From positions 1 to 37,589 of the IMG/VR virus record IMGVR_UViG_3300045988_046639: DNA of 37,589 nt; one strand, 5' to 3'. Under the pieces are notes generated by a model. That model saw only the letters and a list, made by a program, of their open reading frames with translations, searched no databases and was not told the DNA's origin. Below, one piece after another: positions 3,725 through 31,185 of this stretch (within the stretch, counting starts at the first letter, position 1; each line of letters begins with the position of its first letter). Position numbers and translations under genes: made by a program. The DNA comes from a virus.

Positions 3725-4594
3725 CTATAAACCTAAATACCTTTCATTATAGTAAACAGTGCAAGCTAGGTTGGTATCTCCGTTGTCTGCCGTATATCCT
3801 ATGATATTCTCACCTAAATTAATAGTCATATCATTGAATGATGATGTTCTATCAACTTTGCCGATACAATTCACACCATTTTTCTTTATCGAAATAGGTT
3901 CAGAAACTAAATCAATTTCTAATACATCACCATTGTGTAGCGTATCTAATACACGAATATATTTATCTTTGTTGAATAGTTTCGGATTTGTTACCTCTCC
4001 AAACGCTTCAATAACGGCTCTACAATATGTTTCTGTATCGCCTTGATTATCAATATAGATTTCTCTAGCGAATGTAAATGTTCCAAAGTTTACGCCTGTT
4101 TCCGGTATTTCAAAATTGAACGCTAAACCTTCACCAATTTCTGCTATATTCCTTGCGAAATCATCAAATGAAAGCAACAAAGGTTGCGTGCATAGAATTG
4201 TAAAGTTAAGCTCTAAATCTTTGTAGATGTTAACTGTAGGCAAGCTATATGCGTATAACCTTCCTCTGCAATACTTCTTTTCTCCCATGTACTCAACTAT
4301 AATGTCAAACACATGAGAATATTGGAAGAAGCGCCGTAGCTTCTCCCTTTCTTCTCTTTTTTCTTCTAGTGAACCTTTGAAGGTAGCTTTCACACTTCTT
4401 TCTTTTGTTGGAATACGTGAACCGATTAATCTAGCACCGTTTCCGAATGCGTTGTCTTGTGTTGTATATGAAGGTGCTACATAATCAAATCCATCTAAAC
4501 CATCACTAGATGGTATTCTCCATCTTTTGTTGTCGATTTCAAATTCTTTGCCATCATCCCTACGGACGATAACTCTTACTTTATTGATATCTAT
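3725..4594 (-). CDS. Distal tail protein (Dit)
   Basis: The frame is open to 4639 with no ATG/GTG/TTG upstream of 4393. ATA at 4594 lies 9 nt after GGAGG and overlaps the TMP stop (ATAG). The N-terminal extension is IDINKVRVIVRRDDGKEFEIDNKRW... Confidence 0.8.
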   Translation of the reverse strand: MDINKVRVIVRRDDGKEFEIDNKRWRIPSSDGLDGFDYVAPSYTTQDNAFGNGARLIGSRIPTKERSVKATFKGSLEEKREEREKLRRFFQYSHVFDIIVEYMGEKKYCRGRLYAYSLPTVNIYKDLELNFTILCTQPLLLSFDDFARNIAEIGEGLAFNFEIPETGVNFGTFTFAREIYIDNQGDTETYCRAVIEAFGEVTNPKLFNKDKYIRVLDTLHNGDVLEIDLVSEPISIKKNGVNCIGKVDRTSSFNDMTINLGENIIGYTADNGDTNLACTVYYNERYLGL

Positions 4595-7170
4595 TGAACA
4601 ACACCTCCATATCCATATCTTGCTTGCATACGTAACATTCTAGCAATTTCATCCGGACTTTGAACTTTATTGTAGAAGTTGATAGTCTGTCCATTGTTAT
4701 TTGTCGTTACGCTTGGCATGATTTGAGCCATATCTTTAGCTACGGCACGAATCCACGCTTTATTTTTTTCTAAAGGTACGACGGCTTCTGCACCATTACC
4801 TTCTAACAAGCCAATTTGACCACGTTTTAATACACCACCACGTTCTAATCTTGGAATCTTTCCAATGTGAACACCTGGAATCTTATTGATGATTCCGATT
4901 GCACCGTTAATGCCACCGATAACACCATTTACCATTCCTTTTACACTAGAGACTAATGAACCTACTGCTCCTTCAATTCCACTAAATACACCACTTACAA
5001 ATCCTTTTAAACCGCTCCATGAATTCTGTATTCCTTGTAGAACATTTGAAATTTTATTTCCTACATTGTCCATCACACCTTGAACTTTAGACCAAATGCC
5101 ATTAAATACATCAGAAACAGTACTCTTAACATTATTGAAATATTTATTAATATTATCAATAACACCTTGAACCTTGTCTCTTACCTTGTTCATGGAATCT
5201 TGAATTTTACTCCAAATTTTGTTTATGATATCCGAAACCGTCTTAAATAAATTGCTTACGAACCCAATAATCGCAGTAACTACTTCGCTAACCTTACTCC
5301 AAATATTCTGAGCAACCGTTAATATTACAGACCAAATATTCGCTACGATTGTAGCTACAATTTGAACAATAGGCATGATAAATCCTAGTATTGTTGCAAT
5401 TGCAGTTCCTACATACGTCACAACCATAGTTATAAATGAAATGATTCCACTTACCACACTTCCAACAACTTGAAGGATAGATGTTATTACAGGAATCATG
5501 CCGATAACTGTTTGAATAATCTTCTTAATGATTGCTAGAATTGGTGGTCCTACAACGCTAAGAATCTTTTGAGCTTGGTTAACAACATTTTGAATTGCGT
5601 TACCAATTTTACCTAAGATTTCTTTTGCGATAGGTTCAAGCGCAACTTTCATTTCATCAATAGCTTTTCTAACTTCATCAAACGCAGGAGCTAACACTTC
5701 GGAAACTTGATTTGTTAATTCTGTAATTCCACTTGTATCAATCTTACTTAATACGCTTGAAATTACATCACCAACTTTAGCAAATCCTTGTTGAATGCCT
5801 TGAATTGCTACTGTAATCAATCCTACAATGCCTGCAAGAATAGGGGTAATAAGTTCGCCTATTGGAGTAAATGAATCAAGAAATGCGCGTCCTAAGCCAC
5901 TTAAAGCGTTCTTTAAGCCACCATTTGCGATATCTTTAACTTTATCCATTGCCCCTTCTACATCTTTATATTTATTCCCTACTGTTGTTAAGGACTGAAT
6001 GAATCCGGCGTTGAAATCTTCTCCCATTGTACCGAATGCTTTAGCCATCTTTTGACGCTTTTCTTCTTCGTTAGTTGTAGTTCGTATATCTTCAACAATA
6101 GCGTTAATTACTTCTTTTTCTGTCGCTCCACCTTCTTGCCAAGCTTTAAACATATCCTGTGTCTTATCGTTAAACATATCTAGTGAATCGCTAACAGTTC
6201 CATCTGCAATTCGGTTTGTAACTTCGTTGATTGCGTCATTTACTTTATCAAGGTTATAAGCTCCACCGTCTAAACCATTTTGCATTAATTGGAAATATTC
6301 CTTTGCCGAATATCCTGCTTGCTTAAATTTACCGGAGTATTCCGAAATGTTGTCACCTAACTCATCTGATTTGTTTAAACCATTCTGAGCACCTGTAGCC
6401 ATAAGGTCGAAAGCTTCTTGAGAAGTGATTCCGAACTGCTTCATTAATTGTTGAGCGCCTCTAAGAGTTTCATTCTCATCCATATCGAATGTATCTCTTA
6501 AAGTTAATAAATCCTCGGTCACGTTCTTTAGGTCAACATCACTTATGCCTTGCATTTGTTGCTTGACTCTGCCCATCATATCGGCAACATCTGAAACATC
6601 TTCACCGAAATTATTAGACCAAACATCACGAGCAATGTTTTTAAATTTGCTCATTTCATTACTTGAAGCACCTGTCTGAGCTTGGAATTTAGCCATAGCG
6701 TCATCTAATTCAGTAGCTTGGTTAACACCTGTTTTAATCGCTAATGCCATTCCACCGATAGCTCCTGCTACGGCAGTAACGCCTACAACACCTCCAACTC
6801 CTAACCCTGTTAAAGTTTCAGTGATTGCAGTAGCTTCCGGACTAATATTCTGAATCTTTCCTAATAGTCCATCAAATCCACCTTGAATTGATTCTAAGGC
6901 ACTGTTTCCTACTTGTTTAAATACATCAAATTTAGAACCTGTTTCTTGCGTTTCTGTTTGTGTATTCTTTTGCTCTTCGTTTAATTCTTTAAGTTTATCT
7001 TTAATTTTTGGTGGTGCTTTTGAACCATCAGAACCTAGCTTGTCGATTGCTTTTGAAGTATCTTTGATAGCATTTGTTGCTTTACTTGATACCTTGCTAA
7101 CCGATTCAATACCATTTTCAAGACCACTTGTATCTAGCCTTGTATCGAACTTTAATGTTCCATCTGCTAT
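4591..7170 (-). CDS. Tape measure protein (about 860 aa)
   Basis: Long helical and TM-rich protein in the expected position. The frame is open to 7170 and the first canonical start is 140 codons in. ATA at 7170 follows the GGAGGTGG SD and gives (M)ADGTLKFDTRLDTSGLENG... Confidence 0.9.
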   Translation of the reverse strand: MADGTLKFDTRLDTSGLENGIESVSKVSSKATNAIKDTSKAIDKLGSDGSKAPPKIKDKLKELNEEQKNTQTETQETGSKFDVFKQVGNSALESIQGGFDGLLGKIQNISPEATAITETLTGLGVGGVVGVTAVAGAIGGMALAIKTGVNQATELDDAMAKFQAQTGASSNEMSKFKNIARDVWSNNFGEDVSDVADMMGRVKQQMQGISDVDLKNVTEDLLTLRDTFDMDENETLRGAQQLMKQFGITSQEAFDLMATGAQNGLNKSDELGDNISEYSGKFKQAGYSAKEYFQLMQNGLDGGAYNLDKVNDAINEVTNRIADGTVSDSLDMFNDKTQDMFKAWQEGGATEKEVINAIVEDIRTTTNEEEKRQKMAKAFGTMGEDFNAGFIQSLTTVGNKYKDVEGAMDKVKDIANGGLKNALSGLGRAFLDSFTPIGELITPILAGIVGLITVAIQGIQQGFAKVGDVISSVLSKIDTSGITELTNQVSEVLAPAFDEVRKAIDEMKVALEPIAKEILGKIGNAIQNVVNQAQKILSVVGPPILAIIKKIIQTVIGMIPVITSILQVVGSVVSGIISFITMVVTYVGTAIATILGFIMPIVQIVATIVANIWSVILTVAQNIWSKVSEVVTAIIGFVSNLFKTVSDIINKIWSKIQDSMNKVRDKVQGVIDNINKYFNNVKSTVSDVFNGIWSKVQGVMDNVGNKISNVLQGIQNSWSGLKGFVSGVFSGIEGAVGSLVSSVKGMVNGVIGGINGAIGIINKIPGVHIGKIPRLERGGVLKRGQIGLLEGNGAEAVVPLEKNKAWIRAVAKDMAQIMPSVTTNNNGQTINFYNKVQSPDEIARMLRMQARYGYGGVVQ

Positions 7171-8131: not shown

Positions 8132-8638
8132 TTATACTTCTGATGTGCCTTCTGTGAAGGTTACTGTTCCATCTGCTACCTTTGCAACACCGACACGAAT
8201 ATCGCTTGCAAAGTTAATATTGAAGTTGATTTTTGAATCGGCACCGCTTAATGTATCGAAAATCAATTTAGCGTCAACTTCCCACGCTTTATAGCCTTTA
8301 GTTTTGTCTCCGTCAAACATGAATACAAGTAAAGCTTTTGTATTTACTTCTTCATTGTTTGGTACGGATTTCATCATTTGTTCGTAAATATATTCAAAGT
8401 CATCTTCGCCTTTAATCATTGTTAAATCTTGCGAAATCTGAGGTGAATAACTCTTTAATGATTCGGTTGGGTTCTTATCTGCGATAAAGTCATACGTTTC
8501 AGTTTCACTGTTAAATGAAATATCTAAAGTTGTAGATTTCTTAATTCGCTTGTAACCTTCTCCCATTTGTAAGAACAATCCAATCATATACTTCTTGACT
8601 GTTTGCCCTGTATTTACTTCAGTTCCTTGAGTTGCTAT
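8132..8638 (-). CDS. Major tail protein
   Basis: Position and size. ATA at 8638 lies 8 nt after AAGGAG (TAATA overlap with the upstream stop). The internal ATG at 8587 has no SD. Confidence 0.65.
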   Translation of the reverse strand: MATQGTEVNTGQTVKKYMIGLFLQMGEGYKRIKKSTTLDISFNSETETYDFIADKNPTESLKSYSPQISQDLTMIKGEDDFEYIYEQMMKSVPNNEEVNTKALLVFMFDGDKTKGYKAWEVDAKLIFDTLSGADSKINFNINFASDIRVGVAKVADGTVTFTEGTSEV

Positions 8639-10196: not shown

Positions 10197-10301
10197 CTAT
10201 TTTTCTTTTTGAGGTTTAGCTTCCTCTTTTTTTGTTTGAGGTTTACCTTTTTTAGGCTTTTCAACTTTAGAAGGATAACCCCATCCGATTTCTTTCGCCA
10301 T
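10197..10301 (-). CDS. Small Lys-rich peptide (34 aa)
   Basis: ATG overlaps the capsid gene stop (TAATG). Sequence is MAKEIGWGYPSKVEKPKKGKPQTKKEEAKPQKEK. It is below the ORF-track cutoff. Confidence 0.35.
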   Translation of the reverse strand: MAKEIGWGYPSKVEKPKKGKPQTKKEEAKPQKEK

Positions 10302-11170
10302 TACTTAGCACTAGCAGATAAGTAAATACCTGCTACCTTATTTTGATATACATCAACAATTCCATACTTACGATATTTCAATACATCTGAATCTGATTCA
10401 ATGTTATTGCTTGCAGGAATTACATTTGAAACGGTGTGTTTATCCCATTTCATAACGGCAGGTTTATGAACAATCAAGAAGTTGATTACGTGTCCATCTT
10501 CTGCCTTTTCGTATCCGCCCTCTAACTCTGTATCTTTTCCACTCAACAATTTGATTTTTGTATAGAAGCGACTAGCAGGTACAGGAACAACTTTTGCGAA
10601 TCCTTGTAAAGCTTCACGTGATTTGTAAGTGTCCAACGCCTTAACGCTATTTAATAATGTTGGTGTTGAATACAAGATACGTTGTTCGCTAGGAACTTCA
10701 TCCTCATCCATTTTAGTGATAGCCGTTAACAATGCGCTCAAGAACTCTTCTGCACCTGTATAATCTTCTGAAACCTTTGTGATTCCTGTTGTGCCGGCAA
10801 TCTTAGCGAATGTGTAAGCGTCTGCTTCCGGTGCAACCTTTGTACGCATTAATTCTGCTCCTGCCATGCCGAATGCAATATTCATTGATTCTGCGTTATC
10901 TTGTGTATCAACTGAGATTTTAGTTCCTCTATCATAGTCGAATGTAGCAGTTTTCCATTCTAACTTAACTGAGTTACCTGTATAACCACTGTTTCTATCG
11001 TAGTTTCCTAAACCTTTAACAGAAATTTGTGGATAAATGATTTCTTTTGCATTTGCTCCGGCTCGTACCATTGTAGCGTCTGCGTTTAAATCACCTGTAA
11101 CTGAAGCTAACTTATATACCTCATCCAAATTTGAGACATACGTTTTAGCTAATGTAATTTGATTTGGTAT
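10301..11170 (-). CDS. Major capsid protein
   Basis: Position after the scaffold gene. The frame opens right after a TAA. ATA at 11170 lies exactly 9 nt after AGGAGG and gives (M)PNQITLAKTYVSNLDEVYKLASVTGDLN, a capsid-family N-terminus. The ORF-track TTG at 11128 truncates it. Confidence 0.85.
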   Translation of the reverse strand: MPNQITLAKTYVSNLDEVYKLASVTGDLNADATMVRAGANAKEIIYPQISVKGLGNYDRNSGYTGNSVKLEWKTATFDYDRGTKISVDTQDNAESMNIAFGMAGAELMRTKVAPEADAYTFAKIAGTTGITKVSEDYTGAEEFLSALLTAITKMDEDEVPSEQRILYSTPTLLNSVKALDTYKSREALQGFAKVVPVPASRFYTKIKLLSGKDTELEGGYEKAEDGHVINFLIVHKPAVMKWDKHTVSNVIPASNNIESDSDVLKYRKYGIVDVYQNKVAGIYLSASAK

Positions 11171-14715: not shown

Positions 14716-15324
14716 CTAACCCCACATTGTGTTTAAATCGTTTGTTGTAATCGCCGTTAATTCTGATTTCTTAACATACGCCGATAAATCAATGTCTGTA
14801 TTACCAATCTTTTCATATGTCTTTGTCTCTGAAAGCCAAATATACTCATCATAAATATCTTGCGTGCCGTGTGAATGTGCTACCAAATAAATCACACCAT
14901 TTGAACCTGTAGCAGGTAAGCTAGTTACCTTTTCATATCTAATAGATGTAATATTACCTACTGCCGAATTAATCAACGATTGTACTTGTGATTGCGTTTG
15001 ATACCCTTTAGCCGTGATAATTGACTCAACGCTCGTCGCCGACTGATATCCATTGTCATTTGTTAATTGTGATGTCTTTGTAGGCACTGTAACATCCACG
15101 GCTTTTGAGCTTGGCGTTAATTTCGTACCATTTACCTTTACAGACTCAATCACATTCACTTGAGCACCACTTGCGATACCACTTAATTTTTGCTTTTCTG
15201 CGCTAGTATAGTCATTTGTCGATAAGCCTTTACCACTTACGACATCAACTTTCCCACCTAACGCCGATTTAATTTTGCTAATCAAGAGCGTTAGTCCACT
15301 CTTATCTAAATATTCAATAGCTAT
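14716..15324 (-). CDS. Fibre protein (GKGLSTNDYTSAEKQKL repeat type)
   Basis: ATA at 15324 lies 7 nt after GGAGG and gives (M)AIEYLDKSGLTLLISKIKSALGG. The ORF-track TTG at 15285 truncates this conserved-looking N-terminus. Confidence 0.65.
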   Translation of the reverse strand: MAIEYLDKSGLTLLISKIKSALGGKVDVVSGKGLSTNDYTSAEKQKLSGIASGAQVNVIESVKVNGTKLTPSSKAVDVTVPTKTSQLTNDNGYQSATSVESIITAKGYQTQSQVQSLINSAVGNITSIRYEKVTSLPATGSNGVIYLVAHSHGTQDIYDEYIWLSETKTYEKIGNTDIDLSAYVKKSELTAITTNDLNTMWG

Positions 15325-15665: not shown

Positions 15666-15961
15666 GTAATCACTTCCTTATTCAATACTCTATATACCTT
15701 TGTTGTCTTGATAGGAGAAGCAATAGCAACTCCTCCTTTTGTAATCATTCTTAATTGAATGTTACAAGTTCCCTCTTTGAAATTGAGCGTTTCTTCTTGG
15801 CTTAACGATACTGAAATAGTATTTCCTTCAATGTCTAAATCACTTGATTCTTTTTTCAAGATATATCCGTTCTGTTCAAATACCACATAGATATTCTGCA
15901 TTTCATTTAAATCAATATCGTTTATTGTGATTTGAATTGTTGGCGTTGTTCCTTGTCTCAT
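15662..15961 (-). CDS. Small beta-rich structural protein
   Basis: ATG at 15961 forms an ATGA overlap with the upstream stop and follows AAGGTGA. Confidence 0.55.
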   Translation of the reverse strand: MRQGTTPTIQITINDIDLNEMQNIYVVFEQNGYILKKESSDLDIEGNTISVSLSQEETLNFKEGTCNIQLRMITKGGVAIASPIKTTKVYRVLNKEVIT

Positions 15962-16767
15962 GATTTCACCTTGTAAGTCCAATCTTTGCCTACTTCACCT
16001 TCATCAACTTCATACGCCCAATCTGCTAGAATCTCATGCCCATTCTCATCTACTAGTGTTCCATCTTCTGTTAATAAGATTGTAGTGAAATGGTTCTCCA
16101 TAATCATCTTTTCAATATTTGAAATTCTATTTGATAACTTTCCTGCCGTATTTGCGTCTAACGTATCTTTTACAGTTTCAAACCAATCATTGAACTCTGT
16201 TCTATTTGCGTTCATTTCAGATTCGTTCTGAGCCTTAATTTCTTTGAATAACTCAGTAACTTGAGTGAATAAATCCAACGATTGTACGCTCTTAATTGCA
16301 CTTGTAACTGCTCCACAACGTGTAGAATCTAATCTTGTATCAGTAATATCTGAGCCTTTAACTTCGCTTGCATTGCCTGTTATGGTGACCGTAGCTAATA
16401 CTAAATCGTAAATAGAATCACTTCTTGTGATTCCATCATTGATATCACTTGCTACTAAGGTAATGTTTCTGTATGCGTCATTATCATTCAATCTAAGAAT
16501 AATATTGTAGCTTTTAGTTGCGCTATTCTTTTCTAATGTGATGGTTTCGTCATCTTTCTGCCAATAGAACGCTCCGTTAATATTTGCTCGTCCTGCCTTA
16601 ACTGTAAGCGTTAAGCCTTGAGCTTTCTCAACTCTTAAATGGTCTGAACTAGAATCATCTACGAACACACCATTTGTAAAATAACTTGAGAACAATCTTC
16701 TGAAAGCGTCATATAATACTAATCTATCGCCATTTCTCGAAACGAATGGAAAATATGTAGTTGCTAT
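15958..16767 (-). CDS. Fibre/structural protein (YFPF...GDR N-terminal family)
   Basis: ATA at 16767 overlaps the portal stop (ATAG), 9 nt after GAGGGGGA. It gives (M)ATTYFPFVSRNGDRLVLYDAFRRLFSSYFTNGVF. Confidence 0.65.
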   Translation of the reverse strand: MATTYFPFVSRNGDRLVLYDAFRRLFSSYFTNGVFVDDSSSDHLRVEKAQGLTLTVKAGRANINGAFYWQKDDETITLEKNSATKSYNIILRLNDNDAYRNITLVASDINDGITRSDSIYDLVLATVTITGNASEVKGSDITDTRLDSTRCGAVTSAIKSVQSLDLFTQVTELFKEIKAQNESEMNANRTEFNDWFETVKDTLDANTAGKLSNRISNIEKMIMENHFTTILLTEDGTLVDENGHEILADWAYEVDEGEVGKDWTYKVKS

Positions 16768-18167
16768 TCTTCATCATCCCCCTCTCCATCATCTTGAATT
16801 TCTTCATTTAATAACTCCGTTGCTTCTTCTTCAGTAAATCCGTATTGCTTCATAAAGTACATAATCTTTAATCTTGGAATATCAAATGTTAGTGCGTCAT
16901 TTCTTAACGCTTGTGCAGTGCTTTGCTTATCCTCGATATATGTATCATCATAATCAATAGCAATGTCTAATGAATTGATATTAAGCTTTCTGCCTTGTGT
17001 TAATTCATAAAAGTATGCTATTGCTTGAATGATATCTTGAATATATGCAGTAGATTCTTTACGTTGTGAGTTAACTTCCTTCATTGCGTCTTGATTCTCA
17101 CCGATATATTCTGTAGCCGTCACAATTCTTCCACTTTCAAATGTGTATTTCTTTGTACCGAATCCAAACATCATTGATAATATGCTCAATGCAGTTTCTA
17201 ACGATTGGACAACTTCTTGTGTTCTTACTGTTGGATTGTACTCTTGCCATAAAGCTTTTTCTTCCGGTAGCTTATCCCTACCTAACTGAACAAAGATATT
17301 CTTTAATTGTGGGTTCTGTTTCACTTTTCCGTTCTTGTCTTTTTGCATTAATGCTTCATTTACAAGAACGATTTTATCTGACTTTAACAAATCACGATTC
17401 CACATTGTCATTGTCAAATCAATTGTTTTTAGTGGAGCGATTGCGCTCCAAATCTTTGGTAAGCCGTACCCTTGCATTTGTAAGTTGTTTACCTTTGCGT
17501 TTCTCATGATTGCAAACGGCTTAACCACATCTAATTGAACAATCTGAGCACGCTCTTTTATTTCTTCACCTGTGTCTTTGAAGTAATGTGTTTCTGCAAT
17601 ATATCTTTCGTCTTGCCCTTTTAAGAACATGACCATCACATATACTTTTTTTAGTTTCTCATAATTTACTCCAACAAAAGCTACCTCAACGATTTCATCA
17701 TTGATAACAGTCAATGGAAGGATATTCATTGAATCACAATAGTTGATTCTGATTTCTCCTCCACTGAATGTACCATCTTCATAAATCTCGGCATTCGATA
17801 CCGTTACATAAGCTCCTACCGTACCATTTGCAGACATTTGCTCAACTTGCTTCCTATACATAACATCAAATCTATTCTTCGTTAGAATGTCTGAAATAAT
17901 GTCATTTGTTGTACTGTCCTCAGTGGCGTTTATATCTAGGATTTCAATAAGGTTTGCGTCATCCTCGCATAAACGCTTTGCAAAGTCTGTCTTGTCTAAT
18001 GTGTATTCCTCGTTGTTCAAGGTATATGCCGTATGAAATTCTGTTTCGGTATTTGTATACCACTTATTACACAATTCAATAATCTCAATTGCGTTTGTAT
18101 CTACATAATACCCTCTTTCGTTTAGGTAATTCTGAAACCACGGTCTACGTGTGTTAGATGTTTCTAT
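16764..18167 (-). CDS. Portal protein
   Basis: Position after TerL, size, and acidic C-terminus. The frame opens after the TerL TAA, and ATA at 18167 lies 6 nt after AAGGAGG. The ORF-track TTG at 18074 is 31 codons in. Confidence 0.8.
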   Translation of the reverse strand: METSNTRRPWFQNYLNERGYYVDTNAIEIIELCNKWYTNTETEFHTAYTLNNEEYTLDKTDFAKRLCEDDANLIEILDINATEDSTTNDIISDILTKNRFDVMYRKQVEQMSANGTVGAYVTVSNAEIYEDGTFSGGEIRINYCDSMNILPLTVINDEIVEVAFVGVNYEKLKKVYVMVMFLKGQDERYIAETHYFKDTGEEIKERAQIVQLDVVKPFAIMRNAKVNNLQMQGYGLPKIWSAIAPLKTIDLTMTMWNRDLLKSDKIVLVNEALMQKDKNGKVKQNPQLKNIFVQLGRDKLPEEKALWQEYNPTVRTQEVVQSLETALSILSMMFGFGTKKYTFESGRIVTATEYIGENQDAMKEVNSQRKESTAYIQDIIQAIAYFYELTQGRKLNINSLDIAIDYDDTYIEDKQSTAQALRNDALTFDIPRLKIMYFMKQYGFTEEEATELLNEEIQDDGEGDDEE

Positions 18168-18170
18168 TTT

Positions 18171-19502
18171 TTACCTCCTTAAGTCAATATATCCACTATG
18201 GGTTATAAATGTATAGCAGAACGAATCCCAATCATCATTGATATTGTTTACGTTCTCATCTTTTGGAATGTCTTTCTTTTCATCCCATACAAGTTCGCTC
18301 AATGCGTTTATTAAATTCTTACAATGTTCTTCTATCTTTAGCCTACCTGTAACAAGTAAGCTATCAACTGTTATAGGACGGTCTGTAAGCTCATTCTTCT
18401 TTACCGGTGCAATTATACTTCCGTCTAATCCTTCTGCGTAAAAATAAGCTCTAAGCGTGTTTATCAACGTATTAGAAGCACTGTCCGGAAATATCCATTC
18501 AACATATCCGTAACATTCAATACAACGCTTATAGAATCTTACAAATGCTTTGCAAAACTTTGTTGCGTCTATTGCATTTGACTTTGCCATGTCCCCTTCA
18601 TCAAGTGCCCACATATAATCCCAATCGCTCGTGAATCCTGTTAAGTGCCATGAGTATTTCGAACCATTGTCTCCAAAGTCAACGCCTATGATTAAATGAC
18701 TGAACCTTTTTCCTGTTTCATTCATCTTTTCTTTTAGACTCTGATATTTAAATAGGTAAGGTTTGCAGTCATTAGCAAAATAAGGGAATACAAGTCCTTC
18801 GGCTTCTTCCCTCTGTCCTTTTATATCTCTTTTGTAGTAAACGCTATTCTTATCGTATGATTTTAAAACCGTTCTAATCTGCTCATCACTTAAAGAATAA
18901 TTGTCAACTAAGGTGGTATACCCATAGTTGTAACCATATGTAGAATCTTTATTCTGTTGCTCCTCATGATATTTCAAGAAATCTGTGTAATACCAATGAT
19001 TCTTGCCTTTGGGGTTTAAATCATGAAATATCTTTCGATTGCTTGACGCTATCGTTCTATCCATCACTTCTTGTAAAAATTCAATGCAACAAAGGTTTGC
19101 TTCTGTAACGTAAGCCATTCCGTAAGAATAACCATGTATTGCATTCTCTGAGCCTTTCTTAGCACCACCGGCAAAGAATACAACCTTTTCTCCAACTTTT
19201 GTATTGATGTAGTAGCAGTCTTTACCTTCATACTTCCCTACTTTGAATCTGTTAGCAAAATAGTTCTGTAATCCGTATCCGTTACAATCTCCAATATTTA
19301 CACGTGCAGATGATGTATCTGTTCCTGCTATCAAATGGAATTTATCCGGATGTGTTTCTAGTGCAATACAGAAAGCGTATGTGTTGAGTACGTTCTTTCC
19401 TCCACGCTTACCTTAACCTCCCTCAAGTACATTCAACCAACAATCAAATGTTTTCTTGAGGTAAGCCAACTGCTTTTGATTAAAAGGCGCAGGCTTATTC
19501 AT
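18171..19502 (-). CDS. terL: Terminase large subunit, interrupted by an in-frame TAA at 19413..19415 in the P-loop
   Basis: ATG at 19502 follows GGTGGTGG. The sequence reads MNKPAPFNQKQLAYLKKTFDCWLNVLEGG-TAA-GKRGGKNVLNTYAF... in one frame, continuing into ORF 18171..19334. Confidence 0.8.
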
Positions 19503-19520: not shown

Positions 19521-19910
19521 TTATTCAAAATCTTCAATTCTTCTTTCTTTTGCTACATCTGTAATCATAGCCTTATTAATTGCATTTACTTCTGAAGCGT
19601 CAAAATGTGTTTCTACCTTATCTGCTTGACCTAGGAATTGTTTGCCTAAGAAAATAGCCATTGCAGGACTCTTTGAAGCTAGTTTAAATTGCACTCTTCG
19701 TAACGAAATTCTTCCTTGTGCGCCGAACCTTTTTAAACATTCGGAGAAATCAGTTCCATATGTACGTTTACACCATTTTGATAGTGTCTTATCTGTCGTG
19801 TTAAAAAAATAACATACTTCTGCTTGCGTGCATTGAATAGCTAACAATTTTTCAAATTCTTCTTTGTCGAAATCCTTGTTAGGTCTTCCAACTTTTCCAT
19901 TCGCTATTAT
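19521..19910 (-). CDS. terS: Terminase small subunit
   Basis: HTH-like N-terminus. The frame opens after a TAG. Tandem ATA ATA at 19910/19907 lie 4-7 nt after AAAGGGGA and give (M)ANGKVGRPNKDFDKEEFEKLLAIQCTQAEV. The first canonical start is TTG at 19847. Confidence 0.75.
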   Translation of the reverse strand: MIANGKVGRPNKDFDKEEFEKLLAIQCTQAEVCYFFNTTDKTLSKWCKRTYGTDFSECLKRFGAQGRISLRRVQFKLASKSPAMAIFLGKQFLGQADKVETHFDASEVNAINKAMITDVAKERRIEDFE

Positions 19911-20218: not shown

Positions 20219-20240
20219 AACCGAGACAAACGCTCGGTAA
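20219..20240 (-). terminator. Hairpin ACCGAG/CTCGGT with a TCTTTT tail, between the tRNA-like gene and the late operon
   Basis: Read directly on the minus strand. The T-run is weak. Confidence 0.4.
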
Positions 20241-20320: not shown

Positions 20321-20396
20321 TGGTTGCAGGAGAAGGAATTGCACCGTTCGACCTCTAGCTAATAAGACTAGTGAGCTACTACTGCTCTATCCTGCT
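20321..20396 (-). tRNA. tRNA-like gene with anticodon UAU (reads AUA) and initiator-like acceptor and D arms; non-canonical T arm
   Basis: Manual cloverleaf: AGCAGGA UA GAGC AGUAGUA GCUC A CUAGU CUUAUUA GCUAG AGGUC GAA(C)GG UGCAAUU CCUUC UCCUGCA ACCA. It shows U8, A14, G18, A21, U33, G53:C61 and an encoded CCA. Confidence 0.6.
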
Positions 20397-20411
20397 AAAA
20401 CAATTATTACA

Positions 20412-20436
20412 TGAAAAAATGCTCACATTGTGAGCA
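20412..20436 (-). terminator. Rho-independent terminator after the late regulator gene
   Basis: The minus strand reads TGCTCAC-aat-GTGAGCA followed by TTTTTT. It overlaps the stop codon at 20423. Confidence 0.7.
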
Positions 20437-20749
20437 CTTTCTTTAAGTTTTTATTTATTTTTCTTGGAATTTCTTCTCTTGCATAACCTACAATATTAGA
20501 TGTCTTTTCTGCACTGAATCCCTTTATATATCTATACTCAATCATTGTTCGAGTTGTATCATCAAGTTGGCTTAATTTTTCTTTTACATAGTTCATTCTT
20601 CTTGCATAATCTGCATGAGCCAAGAATAGCTCGGCTTTTAATGGATAAATTGCTTCATCCCTTTGTAGCTCGGCTATCTTTTGCTCATAGTATGTATAAG
20701 ATTGGCATTCACACAAGAAGTGTCTCTTAATATCTTCATATGTGCTCAT
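20423..20749 (-). CDS. Late-gene transcriptional activator (sigma-r4-like, ArpU/RinA-type position)
   Basis: DDTTRTMIEYRYIKGFSAEKTSNIVGYAREEIPRKINKNLKK is an HTH pattern. It is the last gene before the packaging module. Confidence 0.55.
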   Translation of the reverse strand: MSTYEDIKRHFLCECQSYTYYEQKIAELQRDEAIYPLKAELFLAHADYARRMNYVKEKLSQLDDTTRTMIEYRYIKGFSAEKTSNIVGYAREEIPRKINKNLKKVLTM

Positions 20750-20956: not shown

Positions 20957-21544
20957 TTAATTTAATGATTTGATAAAATCACAATATCGTTTTATATAAC
21001 TCCATTTGTTTGAATATTTGTAATATTTGCTAGAATGCTCTCCTACGCTTATTTGACTTATTCCTATAACATCTTTACTAGGAATTACCAATACATCTAA
21101 AACCTGTTCATCATCACTAAGTATGTACAAGATATATATGTCACAAGTTGGATATGTTTTTTCTAAATTGAATGTGTAAAAGCTCCCATTCCTACCTCTG
21201 TATAAGGTGCTTGCTTTCACATCAACTTTTACACATTCATTCACTAAAATATCATACGGATGTTTTGTAGACATTTTAATAGCTTCATATCCTTTGCCCT
21301 CTATGTAATCCATAAATTTTAATTCATATTTTCTGCCGAAATTTGTTCTACTTGGTTTTGATTCCAAATGTAATTCTTTCGCTAAAGGAAACCATAAATT
21401 TCTTTTTGAAATTGCATTGCCTAATCTTGAATCACCATAATATTCTTCAACTTCTCTCCTTGTAGGCATTCTGTTTAATCCTGTATCAATAATCATTTCT
21501 TTGATTTGTGATTTTATCTTTTCTTCTGTCCAATGTTCTCTTAT
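20957..21544 (-). CDS. PD-(D/E)xK endonuclease (PDDEXK_5-like) with an N-terminal helical repeat
   Basis: GRKYELKFMDYIEGKGYEAIKMSTKHPYDILVNECVKVDVKAS core. ATA at 21544 lies 5 nt after GGAGGT. The internal ATG at 21496 has no SD. Confidence 0.55.
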   Translation of the reverse strand: MREHWTEEKIKSQIKEMIIDTGLNRMPTRREVEEYYGDSRLGNAISKRNLWFPLAKELHLESKPSRTNFGRKYELKFMDYIEGKGYEAIKMSTKHPYDILVNECVKVDVKASTLYRGRNGSFYTFNLEKTYPTCDIYILYILSDDEQVLDVLVIPSKDVIGISQISVGEHSSKYYKYSNKWSYIKRYCDFIKSLN

Positions 21545-26555: not shown

Positions 26556-27290
26556 TTATGCACCAAACAGTTGTGCTCTAAGCCTATTAAATTCATCTTG
26601 TACTTCTTTATCCGTCTTTGTGCTCTGCTCTATATAAAACTTTGAATCAAGCGTGATAGGCTTATCTTTATTTCTTTTCATCCATTCATCATGAACCCAC
26701 TTCTGAATCACGAGTGAATGATTTTTATACTTCTTTCCACTCGTTTCAATGTACTCATCCAAAATCTTTATATGCTCATCTAATGAATCACCATATAAAT
26801 CTAATAGGTGTGTGTGTTCTTTATCTGTTAAAAGAACGTGTTGATATTCTCCGTATTTGTGTTTACTTACTTTTAATTTATTATTAATTTTAGTATTAAT
26901 AGCTTTATTATTATCTGTATACATTTCTACACTAGGGGTAGTATAAAAATTTACACTAGGGTCATGTACGTTTTTATATGGGGTAGTATAAAAATTTACA
27001 CTAGGGTTGATATATAATTTTCGTTGCAATACTTGTTTTGTTCCTTCTTTATAAATCAACTCTAAACTGATATACCCTTTTTTAACTAATGCACTAATCC
27101 ATTTTTTTACCGCAGATACTGAACAATGATACAAATCTGCGAAATATTGATTTGTTGCCCAACAATATCCTTTTTCATTACACAATGATGTAATTTCTCC
27201 ATACAATAGTTTTGCGTTTGGTGACAATTCTTCATCATATCGAACTTCTGCAGGTATTATTGCGTAATACGATTTCTTTAGTTCTGCTAT
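26556..27290 (-). CDS. Replication initiator / replisome organiser (HTH, DnaD-like)
   Basis: LSPNAKLLYGEITSLCNEKGYCWATNQYFADLYHCSVSAVKKWISALVKKGYI, with iterons inside the gene. The likely start is ATA at 27290, 6 nt after GGTGGAGGTG; the TTG/GTG options lie inside the SD. Confidence 0.7.
   Translation of the reverse strand: MAELKKSYYAIIPAEVRYDEELSPNAKLLYGEITSLCNEKGYCWATNQYFADLYHCSVSAVKKWISALVKKGYISLELIYKEGTKQVLQRKLYINPSVNFYTTPYKNVHDPSVNFYTTPSVEMYTDNNKAINTKINNKLKVSKHKYGEYQHVLLTDKEHTHLLDLYGDSLDEHIKILDEYIETSGKKYKNHSLVIQKWVHDEWMKRNKDKPITLDSKFYIEQSTKTDKEVQDEFNRLRAQLFGA
26935..27006. repeat. Origin-like iterons: 27-bp direct repeat GGGGTAGTATAAAAATTTACACTAGGG x2 plus a third TACACTAGGG
   Basis: Copies at 26935-26961 and 26980-27006, with an extra TACACTAGGG at 26928-26937. 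They encode the repeated PSVNFYTTP in the initiator. Confidence 0.75.
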
Positions 27291-27291
27291 T

Positions 27292-27642
27292 CTAATCACC
27301 TCCACCAAGCACTACGTCTTGCTTTAGGATTTCATCAATGATTTTTTCGATATATTCTAGATAGCAATCTATCTTAATATCGTTATAAGGTGCATCAAGC
27401 TTGTACAATGCTTTATATATTGCTTTAACTCCTACCCTATACAATCCCTCTTTTGTGTAGTCATAACATCCATCTAACATATATATAAATTCTTCGGTGA
27501 TGTCATGAATTGTACACGCTTCATTAAATACATCCTTTGAATTTGTATCTCCTATGCTTCTTTCTGCAATTTGATAAAACAAGTTGAATTCATCAAAGTA
27601 AATTTGCTTTGCTACGTTTACTGCCATTTCTTGCTCTCTCAT
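27292..27642 (-). CDS. Hypothetical protein
   Basis: ATGA overlap with the rusA stop. Confidence 0.55.
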   Translation of the reverse strand: MREQEMAVNVAKQIYFDEFNLFYQIAERSIGDTNSKDVFNEACTIHDITEEFIYMLDGCYDYTKEGLYRVGVKAIYKALYKLDAPYNDIKIDCYLEYIEKIIDEILKQDVVLGGGD

Positions 27643-28007
27643 ATGATTTCTACCTCTATTCTTGGATTCTCCTTATCTGTAAATACTGAATGATTCACTT
27701 GATTAATGTACTTCCTTGAATCATCTTCTAATATTCCTGTTCTAACTAATGAATCTTGAATGAATTTAGTAGCGAATGTGATATTATCAATATCTCTTCT
27801 GTTGTCTTGCTCATACCAATTAATATTTAATTTGATAGGATAGTTCTTAACCTCGTATACTTCACCGAAATTTACTGCCTGTAAGATATAAGCCATTACA
27901 AGACGCTCGTTCTTTTTTACCATTTCTGCTCCCTTGTAACGATTGGCTCGGCAAGCTCTAATATATTCATTCAATCCATCTAGCTTTCCTTTTATTACAA
28001 ACTTTAT
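27639..28007 (-). CDS. rusA: RusA-family Holliday junction resolvase
   Basis: GKLDGLNEYIRACRANRYKGA...DIDNI...KFIQDSLV pattern. ATA at 28007 overlaps the upstream TAA (ATAA), 6 nt after GGGGGA, and gives (M)KFVIKGKLDGLNEY. Confidence 0.75.
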   Translation of the reverse strand: MKFVIKGKLDGLNEYIRACRANRYKGAEMVKKNERLVMAYILQAVNFGEVYEVKNYPIKLNINWYEQDNRRDIDNITFATKFIQDSLVRTGILEDDSRKYINQVNHSVFTDKENPRIEVEII

Positions 28008-31120: not shown

Positions 31121-31185
31121 TGTTTCACCTCCATGACCTGTCTCATCAGTGCTAGTAGGTCATCTCTAGCAGACTAGCCTAGTGG

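What the first reader, a model, noticed from the sequence alone, without database searches (positions are those of the whole stretch)
20321..20396. Phage-encoded tRNA-like gene with an AUA-reading UAU anticodon on an initiator-like body
On the minus strand, 76 nt fold by hand into a cloverleaf. It has U8, A14, G18, A21, U33, a 5-nt variable loop AGGUC, G53:C61, T54/C56/A58 and an encoded CCA. The 7-nt anticodon loop CUUAUUA places UAU at positions 34-36, which reads AUA.

The acceptor and D arms carry the combination that, in bacteria, distinguishes initiator tRNA-fMet from elongator tRNAs and specifies formylation: an unpaired 1:72 (A opposite A), G2:C71, C3:G70, discriminator A73 and A11:U24. 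As far as I recall, the D stem GAGC/GCUC, the variable loop and the 3' end GCAACCA match E. coli tRNA-fMet.

There are departures from a canonical tRNA. It has no run of three G:C pairs in the anticodon stem, U at 37, G at 55, and a bulged C in the T stem. It may therefore be a degenerate or specialised tRNA.

The gene sits between two hairpin terminators, directly upstream of the packaging and late genes. Taken together with the many ATA start codons in this genome, it suggests a phage-supplied initiator for AUA. I am not aware of any described system of this kind.
Basis: partly seen in the sequence, partly recalled or inferred. Interest (0 to 1): 0.92.

Follow-up and report, generated by a model that had tools for sequence, protein, structure and literature searches.

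The report
Phage initiator tRNA for AUA starts
A gut phage carries a tRNA built like the bacterial start (initiator) tRNA but with an anticodon for AUA, about a fifth of its genes, including capsid, portal, tail and lysis genes, start with ATA instead of ATG, and sister phages with AAG- or AGG-reading versions start their genes with AAG or AGG, so these viruses appear to bring their own private start codon.

Summary
Minus strand 20396..20321 is a real, conserved tRNA gene: Rfam tRNA scores 48 bits, there are 9 sequence variants plus a sister lineage, and 6 pairs show compensatory changes.

Its body is initiator-type. It has A1xA72, G2:C71, C3:G70, A11:U24, A73 and an invariant G30:C40. It is 65-76% identical to E. 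coli metZ but only 47-53% identical to elongator Met and Ile2. The anticodon is UAU and position 37 is U.

The phage is a complete circular 37.5-kb temperate genome. Twelve to fifteen of its 62 genes have a Shine-Dalgarno-preceded ATA as the only plausible start. Homologues and profiles put their N-termini exactly there.

Relatives without the tRNA have none or one such start. Related phages whose homologous tRNA carries CUU or CCU start TerS, portal and capsid genes with AAG or AGG. The mRNA base at -1 complements tRNA position 37, which fits quadruplet pairing. Internal ATA codons behave as Ile.

The best reading is a phage-supplied initiator tRNA that creates a private start codon. I found no natural precedent in the literature I could search. 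Expression, charging and formylation are untested, and the host is unknown.

The parts
20321..20396 (-). Initiator-type tRNA gene with anticodon UAU (34-36), U37 and an encoded CCA. Features: A1xA72, G2:C71, C3:G70, A11:U24, A73, G30:C40, U31.G39, a bulged base in the T stem, T loop UGCAAUU.
   Evidence: Sequence. Rfam tRNA 48 bits. Cloverleaf minimum-free-energy fold. 9 variants plus a sister lineage, 99.5% of cells paired, 6 pairs with changes on both sides, 0/500 shuffles. 65-76% identity to E. coli metZ against 47-53% to metT and ileX.
20414..20436 (-). Intrinsic terminator ending the upstream (early or regulatory) transcription unit: stem TGCTCAC/GTGAGCA, loop AAT, then TTTTTT.
   Evidence: Read. 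The same hairpin is listed.
20403..20411 (-). Possible extended -10 element TGTAATAAT, ending 6 nt before tRNA position 1. This is an inference only.
   Evidence: Read directly. The consensus scan did not report it. Not tested.
20220..20238 (-). Intrinsic terminator just downstream of the tRNA.
   Evidence: 6 pairs, T-rich tail.
19521..19910 (-). Terminase small subunit. Start codon ATA at 19910..19908, Shine-Dalgarno AAGGGG, A at -1.
16764..18167 (-). Portal protein. Start codon ATA at 18167..18165, Shine-Dalgarno AAGGAGG, A at -1.
   Evidence: ATA in 27/27 distinct relatives. The public gene call is truncated to 436 aa.
15958..16767 (-). Head protein (phrog_1220). Start codon ATA at 16767..16765.
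   Evidence: protein 3-224 = profile 8-248. ATA 26/26.
14716..15324 (-). phrog_24103 protein. Start codon ATA at 15324..15322.
   Evidence: 4-200 = profile 4-195/197. Relatives have ATA 11, ATG 4.
10301..11170 (-). Major head protein. Start codon ATA at 11170..11168, Shine-Dalgarno AAGGAGG, A at -1.
   Evidence: Profile 3-294/297 matches residues 3-288. The ATA aligns with the annotated ATG of PMBT5, RG-TP1, MT835795, MT835475 and PQ006095. ATA 20/20.
8132..8638 (-). phrog_3099 protein (probably a tail protein). Start codon ATA at 8638..8636.
   Evidence: Relatives have ATA 21, ATG 1.
4591..7170 (-). Tape measure protein. Start codon ATA at 7170..7168 with the strongest Shine-Dalgarno in the genome. 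The first ATG is 140 codons downstream.
   Evidence: The public gene call leaves a 440-nt gap.
3725..4594 (-). Distal tail protein Dit. Start codon ATA at 4594..4592.
36341..37120 (-). Endolysin (CHAP domain). Start codon ATA at 37120..37118.
   Evidence: (6-83 = profile 5-87).
27639..28007 (-). RusA-like resolvase. Start codon ATA at 28007..28005.
26556..27290 (-). Replication initiation protein. Start codon ATA at 27290..27288.
   Evidence: 6-139 = profile 1-133. ATA 20/20.
20957..21544 (-). phrog_28936 protein. Start codon ATA at 21544..21542.
20423..20749 (-). Small sigma-70 region-4-like or transcriptional-regulator-like gene directly upstream of the tRNA. It is a candidate late-gene activator and marks the early/late boundary.
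   Evidence: Weak matches only. This is an inference.

Best explanation
The gene encodes a phage-supplied initiator tRNA. It descends from tRNA-fMet, but its anticodon is UAU.

Proposed mechanism:
- After transcription it is charged. Isoleucine by IleRS is most likely and methionine is less likely (inferred).
- It is formylated, because it keeps the acceptor-stem and D-stem determinants for the formyltransferase (inferred).
- It binds the 30S P site, helped by the one anticodon-stem pair shown to be essential in E. coli, G30:C40.
- There it decodes AUA start codons that follow a normal Shine-Dalgarno sequence. U37 additionally pairs with an A at mRNA position -1, so the real start signal is A-AUA read by 5'-UAUU-3'.

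About one fifth of the phage's genes depend on this start codon. They include the replication initiator, RusA, TerS, portal, head proteins, major capsid, tail, tape measure, Dit and the endolysin. Efficient production of virions and lysis would therefore be tied to the phage's own tRNA. Internal AUA codons remain isoleucine.

Shown here: the gene, its conservation and structure, its initiator-type body, the ATA starts, and the covariation of start codon with anticodon and of the -1 base with position 37.

Inferred: expression, charging, formylation, P-site use and the biological purpose (a translational licence or timer for lytic genes).
For: (1) It is a real, selected tRNA. Rfam scores 48 bits. 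It is present in all 32 TerL-related IMG/VR loci with enough upstream flank, across TerL identities of 41-99%, and in 26 metagenome contigs. There are 6 compensatory pairs and an invariant anticodon loop.

(2) The body is initiator-type. It has a 1:72 mismatch (A-A; C-A in the sister lineage), G2:C71, C3:G70, A11:U24 and A73. The D stem, V loop and 3' end are identical to E. coli metZ. Identity to metZ is 65-76%, against 47-53% to elongator Met and Ile2. The GC-stem variant has the arm G-UCGGU-CUUAUUA-GCCGA against E. coli G-UCGGG-CUCAUAA-CCCGA. G30:C40 is invariant, and it is the only one of the 3 GC pairs needed in E. coli (PMC5389676).

(3) ATA starts. In 12 ORFs the only Shine-Dalgarno-preceded start near the 5' end is ATA; the next most frequent codon reaches 4 and is the neighbouring codon. 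PHROG profiles begin at those ATA codons. The capsid ATA aligns with the annotated ATG in five other phages. Public gene calls for this contig truncate exactly these genes.

(4) Conservation. ATA is kept in 20-27 distinct sequence variants per gene. The only alternative seen at these start sites is ATG, apart from gapped alignment columns. Internal ATA codons exchange with ATT and ATC, not with ATG.

(5) Co-occurrence. The window has 12 of 54 ORFs against 4 of 189 in five related phages lacking the tRNA (p=4e-6). The sister lineage L075/L103 has a canonical C1xA72 tRNA(UAU) and ATA starts for TerS, portal and capsid.

(6) Anticodon and start codon covary. Homologous tRNAs sit in the same position upstream of TerS.
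- The CUU version goes with AAG starts for TerS, portal, capsid and tape measure in L283/L284.
- The CCU version goes with AGG starts for capsid and portal in L176 and L278-L280.

(7) Position 37 and the -1 base covary.
- U37 goes with A(-1) in 46 of 51 ATA-start clusters, against 95 of 180 for ATG starts (p=3e-7).
- It also goes with A(-1) in 5 of 5 AAG starts.
- A37 in the CCU tRNA goes with T(-1) in 4 of 5 AGG starts.
- Pairing between position 37 and -1 was shown experimentally for E. coli tRNA-fMet (PMC10018350).

(8) Precedent for charging. B. subtilis IleRS charges a UAU-anticodon tRNA-Ile well (PMC3919564). From my own knowledge, Pallanck and Schulman 1991 reported that initiator tRNAs with an Ile anticodon initiate with Ile in E. 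coli; only the title was verified.
Against: There is no experimental evidence of any kind.

Structural concerns:
- The three consecutive G:C pairs are absent. The window is au/GC/ug and the third pair is U31.G39, the reverse orientation of natural variants.
- The elbow is non-canonical (A18, G55) and the T stem has a bulge.
- ARAGORN rejects the window's copy, and folding energy alone is not significant.
- U37 removes the t6A37 site, and several E. coli IleRS determinants are missing, so the charged amino acid is uncertain.

Concerns about the link to ATA starts:
- Single, apparently genuine ATA starts occur in related phages that have no such tRNA: RG-TP1 at 14681 and PQ006095 at 11648. AUA can therefore be used at some level without a dedicated tRNA.
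- Several unrelated contigs with an initiator-like tRNA(UAU) show no clear ATA starts (L068, L097, L144). One is a chromosomal locus that may simply be a mutated host gene (L083).
- The host is unknown, so a host-encoded equivalent cannot be excluded.
Confidence: 0.85

Rival explanations
1. It is an ordinary elongator tRNA-Ile(UAU). It supplements decoding of internal AUA codons in an AT-rich phage, and the ATA starts are read by the host initiator.
For: ARAGORN labels the relatives tRNA-Ile(tat). The phage has 168 internal ATA codons, 21% of its Ile codons. Isolated ATA starts exist in phages without the tRNA.
Against: The tRNA has a 1:72 mismatch, A11:U24 and U37 rather than A37. It is 65-76% identical to an initiator against about 50% to elongator Met and Ile tRNAs. 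This reading does not explain why start codons switch to AAG or AGG where the homologous tRNA has CUU or CCU. It also does not explain the complementarity between the -1 base and position 37.
Confidence: 0.05
2. It is primarily an anti-defence replacement initiator. Its anticodon loop and stem are changed to escape host nucleases that cleave tRNA-fMet (VapC-type). The ATA starts are a secondary adaptation that lets key genes be translated when the host initiator is destroyed.
For: Phage tRNAs often carry anticodon-loop changes predicted to evade tRNases, and VapC enzymes target tRNA-fMet (PMC10264068). The changes cluster at positions 34, 37 and 31:39, around the known cleavage region. This is compatible with everything in the best explanation.
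Against: No nuclease or defence context is known for the unknown host. Most phage genes (44 of 62) still use ATG, so the phage still needs the host initiator, unless U34 also reads AUG. The diversity of anticodons (UAU, CUU, CCU) is not needed for escape.
Confidence: 0.07
3. It is a decaying or non-functional tRNA-like remnant, for example a former att-site or captured host tRNA-fMet gene with a C34U mutation. The ATA starts are weak starts unrelated to it.
For: It has a non-canonical T loop, a T-stem bulge and a weak anticodon stem, and ARAGORN does not detect it. Partial initiator remnants with UAU do occur in metagenome-assembled genomes (L079, L085, L087, L088).
Against: It is full length and lies 13 kb from the integrase. 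It is conserved in every relative over TerL identities of 41-99%, with compensatory substitutions and an invariant loop. ATA at start sites is itself conserved in 20-27 variants per gene.
Confidence: 0.02
4. It reflects a genome-wide code change in which AUA means methionine, as in mitochondria, with this tRNA acting as a general tRNA-Met.
For: AUA is read as Met at initiation and elongation in animal mitochondria (PMC2655697, listed).
Against: Between clades, internal ATA codons exchange with ATT (31) and ATC (12), and with Val and Thr codons. ATG does not appear among their ten commonest counterparts. Internal ATG exchanges with ATA in 2 of 151 cases.
Confidence: 0.01

Closest known systems
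Bacterial initiator tRNA-fMet (E. coli metZ/W/V/Y)
   Same: It shares the 1:72 mismatch, G2:C71, C3:G70, A11:U24 and A73. The D stem GAGC/GCUC, V loop AGGUC and 3' end GCAACCA are identical, and G30:C40 is present. Overall identity is 65-76%.
   Different: The anticodon is UAU, not CAU. Position 37 is U, not A. The anticodon stem is au/GC/ug or GC/GC/ug instead of three G:C pairs. In the window's lineage there are A18/G55 and a T-stem bulge. It is encoded by a temperate phage and paired with ATA start codons.
Engineered orthogonal initiator tRNAs. Examples are the amber initiator tRNA(CUA), i-tRNA(AAC), and the phiX174 biocontainment system with TAG start codons.
   Same: An initiator body with a changed anticodon initiates at the complementary non-AUG codon. 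Essential phage genes are made dependent on that tRNA (bioRxiv 10.1101/2024.07.29.605542; 10.1101/2021.05.25.445580, listed).
   Different: Those systems are man-made, and the tRNA is supplied by the host strain. Here the system is natural, the phage carries the tRNA, and sense codons (AUA, AAG, AGG) are used.
Phage-encoded suppressor tRNAs with stop-codon recoding of late genes in crAss-like and Lak phages (from my own knowledge; not checked here)
   Same: A phage-encoded tRNA changes how a codon is read, so a subset of mostly late phage genes can only be expressed properly when the phage tRNA is present.
   Different: That system acts at elongation on stop codons. This one acts at initiation on a sense codon and does not change the meaning of internal codons.
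Elongator tRNA-Ile(UAU) (Mycoplasma mobile, Bifidobacterium; the B. subtilis tilS-suppressor tRNA1-Ile U34)
   Same: It has the UAU anticodon reading AUA. A Firmicute IleRS accepts UAU anticodons (PMC3919564).
   Different: Those are elongators with a paired 1:72 and a tRNA-Ile body. This tRNA has an initiator body.
Quadruplet pairing of initiator tRNA position 37 with mRNA position -1
   Same: Complementarity between position 37 and the base before the start codon raises initiation in E. coli, including for an A37U initiator variant (PMC10018350). Here U37 goes with A(-1) and A37 goes with U(-1).
   Different: In E. coli the effect is a modest modulation with the native A37. Here the tRNA has naturally switched to U37 and nearly all its start sites carry the matching A.
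Mitochondrial tRNA-Met(f5CAU), which initiates at AUA
   Same: AUA is used as a start codon.
   Different: That tRNA keeps a CAU anticodon with a modified C34, reads AUA as Met everywhere, and is the organelle's only tRNA-Met.

Membership tests
tRNA (Rfam RF00005) | Cloverleaf scoring above the family's gathering threshold | tested here: met
   48 bits against a gathering score of 29, full-length match. Covariation supports all four helices.
Bacterial initiator tRNA-fMet | Unpaired 1:72 | tested here: met
   A1 opposite A72 in the window. C1 opposite A72 in L075/L103, L283 and L176. This assumes the 5' end is at 20396, which has not been mapped.
Bacterial initiator tRNA-fMet | Formylation determinants G2:C71 and C3:G70 (plus G4:C69) and A73 | tested here: met
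   G2:C71, C3:G70 and A73 are invariant in all variants. The 4:69 pair is A:U, not G:C.
Bacterial initiator tRNA-fMet | Purine 11 : pyrimidine 24 (A11:U24) | tested here: met
   The D stem GAGC/GCUC is identical to E. coli metZ. Elongators metT and ileX have GCUC/GAGC.
Bacterial initiator tRNA-fMet | Three consecutive G:C pairs 29:41, 30:40 and 31:39 | tested here: not met
   The window has A:U / G:C / U.G. The variant has G:C / G:C / U.G.
Bacterial initiator tRNA-fMet | G30:C40, the pair shown to be sufficient and essential in E. coli | tested here: met
   G:C in 10 of 10 variants. Its requirement comes from PMC5389676.
Bacterial initiator tRNA-fMet | CAU anticodon (Met identity, AUG reading) | tested here: not met
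   UAU in every copy. It is therefore not filed as tRNA-fMet, only as initiator-type.
Bacterial initiator tRNA-fMet | Formylation by Fmt, IF2 and P-site binding, exclusion from EF-Tu | not testable with these tools
   Needs biochemistry.
Elongator tRNA-Ile(UAU) | UAU anticodon | tested here: met
Elongator tRNA-Ile(UAU) | Paired 1:72, Y11:R24, purine 37, tRNA-Ile-like body | tested here: not met
   It has an A-A mismatch, A11:U24 and U37. Identity to E. coli ileX is 53% against 65% to metZ.
Private start codon system (initiator tRNA with a matched non-AUG start codon; defined here by analogy to engineered orthogonal initiators) | Genes whose only plausible start is the codon complementary to the tRNA's anticodon | tested here: met
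   12-15 ATA starts, with N-termini confirmed by profiles and homologues.
Private start codon system | The start codon changes when the anticodon changes | tested here: met
   CUU goes with AAG (L283/L284) and CCU goes with AGG (L176, L278-L280).
Private start codon system | Absence of the codon as a frequent start where the tRNA is absent | tested here: met
   0, 0, 0, 2 and 2 flagged ATA-start candidates in MT835795, PMBT5, MT835475, RG-TP1 and PQ006095; one each in RG-TP1 and PQ006095 is backed by a profile.
Quadruplet initiator-mRNA pairing | The mRNA -1 base is complementary to tRNA position 37 | tested here: met
   A(-1) in 46 of 51 clusters against 95 of 180 (p=3e-7) for U37. T(-1) in 4 of 5 for the A37 CCU tRNA. 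This is statistical only.
Phage suppressor tRNA / stop-codon recoding | Anticodon complementary to a stop codon | tested here: not met
   The anticodon is UAU. Stop-to-stop ORFs are intact with the standard code.

The most novel reading that the evidence does not exclude
A lineage of temperate gut Firmicute phages carries a fast-evolving initiator tRNA whose anticodon has switched among UAU, CUU and CCU, and possibly others. Each phage has rewritten the start codons of its replication, packaging, virion and lysis genes to the matching sense codon (A-AUA, A-AAG, U-AGG), which is read as a quadruplet with position 37.

This would be a natural orthogonal translation-initiation system. Proteins would begin with a formylated non-methionine residue such as fIle, fLys or fArg. 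Lytic-gene expression would be licensed only when the phage's own tRNA is made, keeping those genes silent in lysogens or in the wrong cell.
Probability: 0.5. Interest if true: 0.97.

Novelty: new variant of a known kind. Interest (0 to 1): 0.92.

Why it matters
As far as I know, every natural initiator tRNA described carries a CAU anticodon. Non-AUG starts are read by that same tRNA through mismatches.

A virus-encoded initiator tRNA with a different anticodon, matched by the start codons of its key genes, would be a natural counterpart of the orthogonal initiation systems that synthetic biologists have built. It adds a new layer at which phages control, or insulate, their gene expression.

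It has immediate practical consequences. Gene callers truncate or miss about 20% of the genes in these phages, and pipelines label the tRNA as an ordinary tRNA-Ile.

It gives a natural test bed for three questions: what makes a tRNA an initiator (G30:C40 alone, no 3 GC run), quadruplet pairing between position 37 and -1, and initiation with non-methionine amino acids.

Tried and rejected
Searches that gave nothing:
- ARAGORN on the window found no tRNA.
- Megablast of the locus against INPHARED found nothing. blastn found only weak hits to tRNA-Met of Mycobacterium phage Phabba.
- blastn of the tRNA against the E. coli genomes found nothing at that database size. I therefore fetched metZ, metT/U and ileX by coordinates instead.

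Host identification failed:
- The one genome-contig scan found no copy of this family.
- The contig is circular (55-bp terminal repeat), so there is no host flank.
- The endolysin and integrase only point loosely to Firmicutes: streptococcal CHAP lysins and a [Clostridium] innocuum phage integrase.

Other initiator-like tRNA(UAU) hits were examined as possible independent replicates and set aside:
- L068/L074, L084/L099, L097/L152, L095/L148, L124/L144 and L128 use little or no Shine-Dalgarno sequence or are GC-rich, and show no clear ATA starts.
- L083 is a chromosomal locus next to elongator tRNA-Met and thiI.
- L079, L085, L087 and L088 are 3' fragments.

Initiator-like tRNAs with CGU, CAC and CAG anticodons (L282, L287/L289, L290/L291), and CCU with U37 on a fragment lacking structural genes (L281), gave no matching start-codon signal.

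Pfam and PHROG searches of the genes next to the tRNA found no tRNA-modifying enzyme, synthetase or formyltransferase.

The AUA=Met code-change idea was rejected from codon substitution patterns.

The text of Pallanck and Schulman 1991 was not available.
Full report
**What is there.** The minus strand 20396..20321 reads AGCAGGAUAGAGCAGUAGUAGCUCACUAGUCUUAUUAGCUAGAGGUCGAACGGUGCAAUUCCUUCUCCUGCAACCA. Rfam's tRNA model matches it from end to end at 48 bits (gathering score 29, E=2e-7). The thermodynamic minimum-free-energy fold is the cloverleaf, although the energy by itself is not exceptional (z=-0.8). ARAGORN does not call it. It does call the stronger-stemmed variant and the sister lineage, as tRNA-Ile(tat). 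One refinement: when aligned to relatives, the 7-nt D loop reads A18 G19.

**The genome.** The window is a whole circular phage genome with a 55-bp terminal repeat. It is the contig ENA ERZ28619677 scaffold_507. It is about 33% GC and nearly all genes are on the minus strand. It has an integrase, a CI-like repressor, a replication module, then TerS, TerL, portal, head, tail and lysis genes.

**Position of the tRNA.** The tRNA sits at the early/late boundary. Upstream lies a small sigma-r4-like regulator gene and a hairpin followed by T6 (20436..20414). Downstream lie a second terminator (20238..20220), a DUF6275 gene, and then TerS. TGTAATAAT, ending 6 nt before position 1, could be an extended -10 element. 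That is read from the sequence and untested.

**It is a selected gene, not a relic.**
- A TerL search found 39 related IMG/VR loci in clades of about 98%, 70% and 41% identity.
- All 32 loci with enough upstream flank carry the tRNA. For four of the other seven, it lies elsewhere on the same contig.
- Another 26 metagenome contigs carry it, some of them labelled human gut.
- Nine sequence variants exist.
- With the sister-lineage tRNA (L075/L103) added, 99.5% of cells pair and six pairs change on both sides. No shuffle (0 of 500) and no slid register does as well.
- The anticodon loop CUUAUUA never varies.
- The T-stem bulge (C, U or A) and the T loop UGCAA(A/U)U are kept within the family.

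**The body is an initiator body.** I fetched E. coli metZ (initiator), metT/U (elongator Met) and ileX (Ile2).
- The window's tRNA is 65% identical to metZ, against 50% to metT and 53% to ileX.
- The variant with the arm G-UCGGU-CUUAUUA-GCCGA is 76% identical to metZ, against 47% and 52%.
- The sister lineage is 77% identical to metZ.
- The tRNA has the 1:72 mismatch (A-A here; C-A, as in E. coli, in L075/L103), G2:C71, C3:G70, A73 and A11:U24. It has the same D stem, V loop and GCAACCA end as metZ. The elongators have the opposite D-stem orientation.
- The three-G:C rule is not met: the window is au/GC/ug and the variant is GC/GC/ug. However, G30:C40 is invariant. Shetty et al. showed that this middle pair alone suffices and is essential in E. 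coli, and that au/GC/gu initiators occur naturally in mycoplasmas (PMC5389676).
- Because CAU and the 3-GC run are not met, I do not file it as tRNA-fMet. I call it an initiator-type tRNA.

**ATA really is a start codon here.**
- In a scan of Shine-Dalgarno pairing energy, 12 ORFs of at least 90 codons lack any Shine-Dalgarno-preceded ATG, GTG or TTG near their 5' end. Each has a Shine-Dalgarno-preceded ATA within a few codons of the upstream in-frame stop. The next most frequent codon scores 4 and is the codon next to the ATA.
- With three ambiguous cases the tally for 62 minus-strand genes is 44 ATG, 12-15 ATA and 3 GTG.
- The ATA genes are the endolysin, RusA, replication initiator, phrog_28936, TerS, portal, a head protein, phrog_24103, the major capsid protein, a tail protein, the tape measure protein and Dit.
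- PHROG profiles start at these ATA codons. For example, capsid residues 3-288 match profile positions 3-294 of 297, and phrog_24103 residues 4-200 match 4-195 of 197.
- The capsid ATA aligns codon for codon with the annotated ATG of Eggerthella phage PMBT5 and Ruminococcus phage RG-TP1, and with the ATG of MT835795, MT835475 and PQ006095. Each has a Shine-Dalgarno sequence at the same distance.
- The public gene calls for this very contig truncate exactly these genes. The portal is 436 instead of 467 aa and the tape measure protein 719 instead of 859 aa, leaving a 440-nt gap.

**Conservation pattern.**
- Among distinct sequence variants in relatives, the start is ATA in 27 of 27 (portal), 26 of 26 (head protein), 20 of 20 (capsid) and 20 of 20 (replication initiator).
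- The only alternative codon seen at these start sites is ATG, apart from gapped alignment columns (phrog_24103 11 ATA and 4 ATG; tail protein 21 and 1). ATG-start control genes stay ATG wherever the start aligned; the TerL control was queried one base out of register and is uninformative.
- Internal ATA codons behave differently. Between clades they exchange with ATT (31), ATC (12) and Val or Thr codons, and essentially not with ATG.
- So AUA remains isoleucine inside genes, and a mitochondrion-like AUA=Met code is excluded.

**Co-occurrence with the tRNA.**

| Group | tRNA(UAU) | ATA starts |
|---|---|---|
| Window | present | 12 of 54 ORFs |
| Family members | present | 6-8 per 21 kb (2 in the short, divergent L039/L071 loci) |
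| Sister lineage L075/L103 (C1xA72, normal D and T loops, same CUUAUUA loop) | present | 5 of 15 ORFs, incl. TerS, portal, capsid |
| MT835795 | absent | 0 |
| PMBT5 (complete) | absent | 0 |
| MT835475 | absent | 0 |
| RG-TP1 (complete; only a tRNA-Asn) | absent | 2 |
| PQ006095 (complete) | absent | 2 |

The five relatives by capsid similarity that lack the tRNA total 4 of 189 ORFs, against 12 of 54 in the window (Fisher p=4e-6).

One ATA in RG-TP1 (14681) and one in PQ006095 (11648) look genuine by profile alignment. An occasional AUA start is therefore possible without a dedicated tRNA. What is special here is the number of such starts and their use for the most abundant proteins.

**The strongest test: the start codon follows the anticodon.** I scanned IMG/VR for the initiator-type arm with other anticodons. 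Most phage-borne copies have CAU. A homologous tRNA was found in roughly 30% GC phages, again just upstream of TerS. It shares the CGCAGGG...CCCUGCAACCA acceptor stem and the same U31.G39 pair.
- With anticodon CUU (L283/L284), AAG is the top Shine-Dalgarno-preceded non-canonical codon. It starts TerS, portal, capsid, a 147-aa protein and the tape measure protein. Profiles align from residues 1-6 of TerS and portal, and the capsid ORF has no ATG, GTG or TTG for 126 codons.
- With anticodon CCU (L176, L278-L280), AGG precedes the capsid (residues 2-362 match profile 3-380 of 385), the portal and the gene after the tRNA.
- Three anticodons therefore go with three matching start codons in related phages.

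**Position 37 and the base before the start codon.** U37 is odd for any tRNA.
- All 12 robust ATA starts in the window have A at -1.
- Across 96 family loci, 46 of 51 ATA-start clusters have A(-1), against 95 of 180 ATG-start clusters (p=3e-7). T(-1) is depleted (p=2e-4).
- The CUU tRNA also has U37, and its five AAG starts all have A(-1).
- The CCU tRNA of L176 has A37, and four of its five AGG starts have T(-1).
- Höllerer and Jeschek showed in E. coli that position 37 of tRNA-fMet pairs with mRNA -1, and that an A37U initiator favours the complementary base (PMC10018350).
- The start signal is therefore best described as A-AUA read by 5'-UAUU-3'. The extra pair plausibly compensates for an all-A/U codon-anticodon helix. 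This is a statistical inference. The clusters are not phylogenetically independent.

**Which amino acid.** This cannot be decided here.
- C34 is the key MetRS determinant (established knowledge).
- B. subtilis IleRS charges a UAU-anticodon tRNA-Ile well (PMC3919564).
- From my own knowledge, initiator tRNAs given an Ile anticodon are charged with Ile and initiate in E. coli (Pallanck and Schulman 1991). Only the title could be verified.
- I therefore favour formyl-Ile, but U37 and several missing IleRS determinants make this uncertain.

**Purpose (inferred).** The ATA set covers the replication initiator, the packaging, virion and lysis genes. Their efficient translation would therefore need the phage's own tRNA. 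That amounts to a translational licence or timer for the lytic programme, and possibly a safeguard against leaky expression in lysogens. An anti-defence reading, escape from nucleases that cut tRNA-fMet (PMC10264068), is compatible and cannot be separated from this one with sequence data.

**Known or new.** Ten full-text searches found no natural phage or cellular initiator tRNA with a non-CAU anticodon. They found only engineered ones, including a phage biocontainment design that is the mirror image of this system. The library does not cover most subscription journals, so absence there is not proof. I rate it a new variant of a known kind: an initiator-type tRNA, and a phage tRNA that changes decoding. 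Its natural occurrence is, to my knowledge, undescribed.

**Limits.** There are no expression, charging, formylation or proteomic data. The host is unknown. Start-site inference relies on Shine-Dalgarno strength and homology. The CUU and CCU systems rest on few contigs.

Noticed in passing
window 31132-31197 (-): A type II hammerhead ribozyme (Rfam RF02276, 39.4 bits against a gathering score of 37). It is followed immediately by GGAGGTGAAACA-ATA, a possible small ATA-start ORF beginning at 31120. Hammerhead_II also occurs in the distantly related fecal phage contigs MT835795 (two copies, 60-63 bits, plus a RAGATH-28 RNA) and MT835475.
   Followed up: partly
window 19413-19415 (-), within TerL 19502..18171: TerL starts at ATG 19502 but has an in-frame TAA inside the Walker-A region (..NVLEGG*GKRGGKN..). 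Fourteen close relatives read ..NVLEGGKRGGKN.., so the window has a 6-nt insertion. L002 and L014 have a frameshift at the same spot. This could be a defective copy, an assembly variant or recoding.
   Followed up: partly
window 1-55 and 37535-37589: A 55-bp identical terminal direct repeat. The contig is a circular, complete phage genome of about 37.5 kb.
   Followed up: yes
L283/L284 (IMGVR 3300006133_000426, 3300006217_000297); L176, L278-L280 (IMGVR 3300029100_000181 and three 3300045988 contigs): Homologous initiator-type tRNAs with anticodon CUU (U37) or CCU (A37) sit upstream of TerS. TerS, portal, capsid and tape measure genes start with AAG in the CUU phages. Capsid, portal and the gene just downstream of the tRNA start with AGG in the CCU phages. 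AAG and AGG are not known natural start codons.
   Followed up: partly
L282, L287/L289, L290/L291, L281/L285; three CAU loci: Further phage contigs carry initiator-type tRNAs with anticodons CGU, CAC (which would read GUG), CAG (CUG), CCU with U37, and CAU with U37. No matching start-codon enrichment was detectable in the fragments available.
   Followed up: partly
L093 (Ruminococcus phage RG-TP1) 14681; L158 (PQ006095) 11648: These are apparently genuine single ATA starts in phages that lack the tRNA. One is a minor head protein, annotated from 14858 with a 177-nt gap. The other is a tape measure protein, annotated from 11720. Profiles align from residue 2 of the ATA-started proteins. The public annotations are probably truncated.
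   Followed up: partly
L075 minus strand ~2205-2155 (same in L103), about 80 nt upstream of the tRNA: A tRNA-like minihelix: an 8-bp acceptor-like stem plus a T-arm with loop UUCGAUU, and no D or anticodon arms. It folds at -15 kcal/mol, z=-3.8. It could be a tRNA remnant or a processing element.
   Followed up: partly
L144 9388-9543 (95.8-kb gut contig ERZ779669 NODE-22): An initiator-like tRNA(UAU) with three G:C pairs lies next to a tRNA that ARAGORN reads with a 4-base anticodon (tgaa). Many long ORFs on this contig have no ATG, GTG or TTG for 100 codons, which suggests a recoded phage.
   Followed up: no
L083 6266-6469 (Gemmatimonadales MAG JAUVMT010000002); L079, L085, L087, L088: L083 is a chromosomal locus with an otherwise canonical initiator tRNA (three G:C pairs) carrying UAU, in tandem with elongator tRNA-Met and thiI. 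Several metagenome-assembled genomes hold 3'-half initiator fragments with UAU, repeated in a Lentimicrobiaceae MAG. These may be att-site remnants or mutated copies.
   Followed up: partly
window, all ATA-start genes; L156: The public gene calls for this contig use only ATG, GTG and TTG. They therefore shorten or misplace every ATA-start gene. ARAGORN labels the relatives' tRNA as tRNA-Ile. Standard pipelines hide this system.
   Followed up: yes
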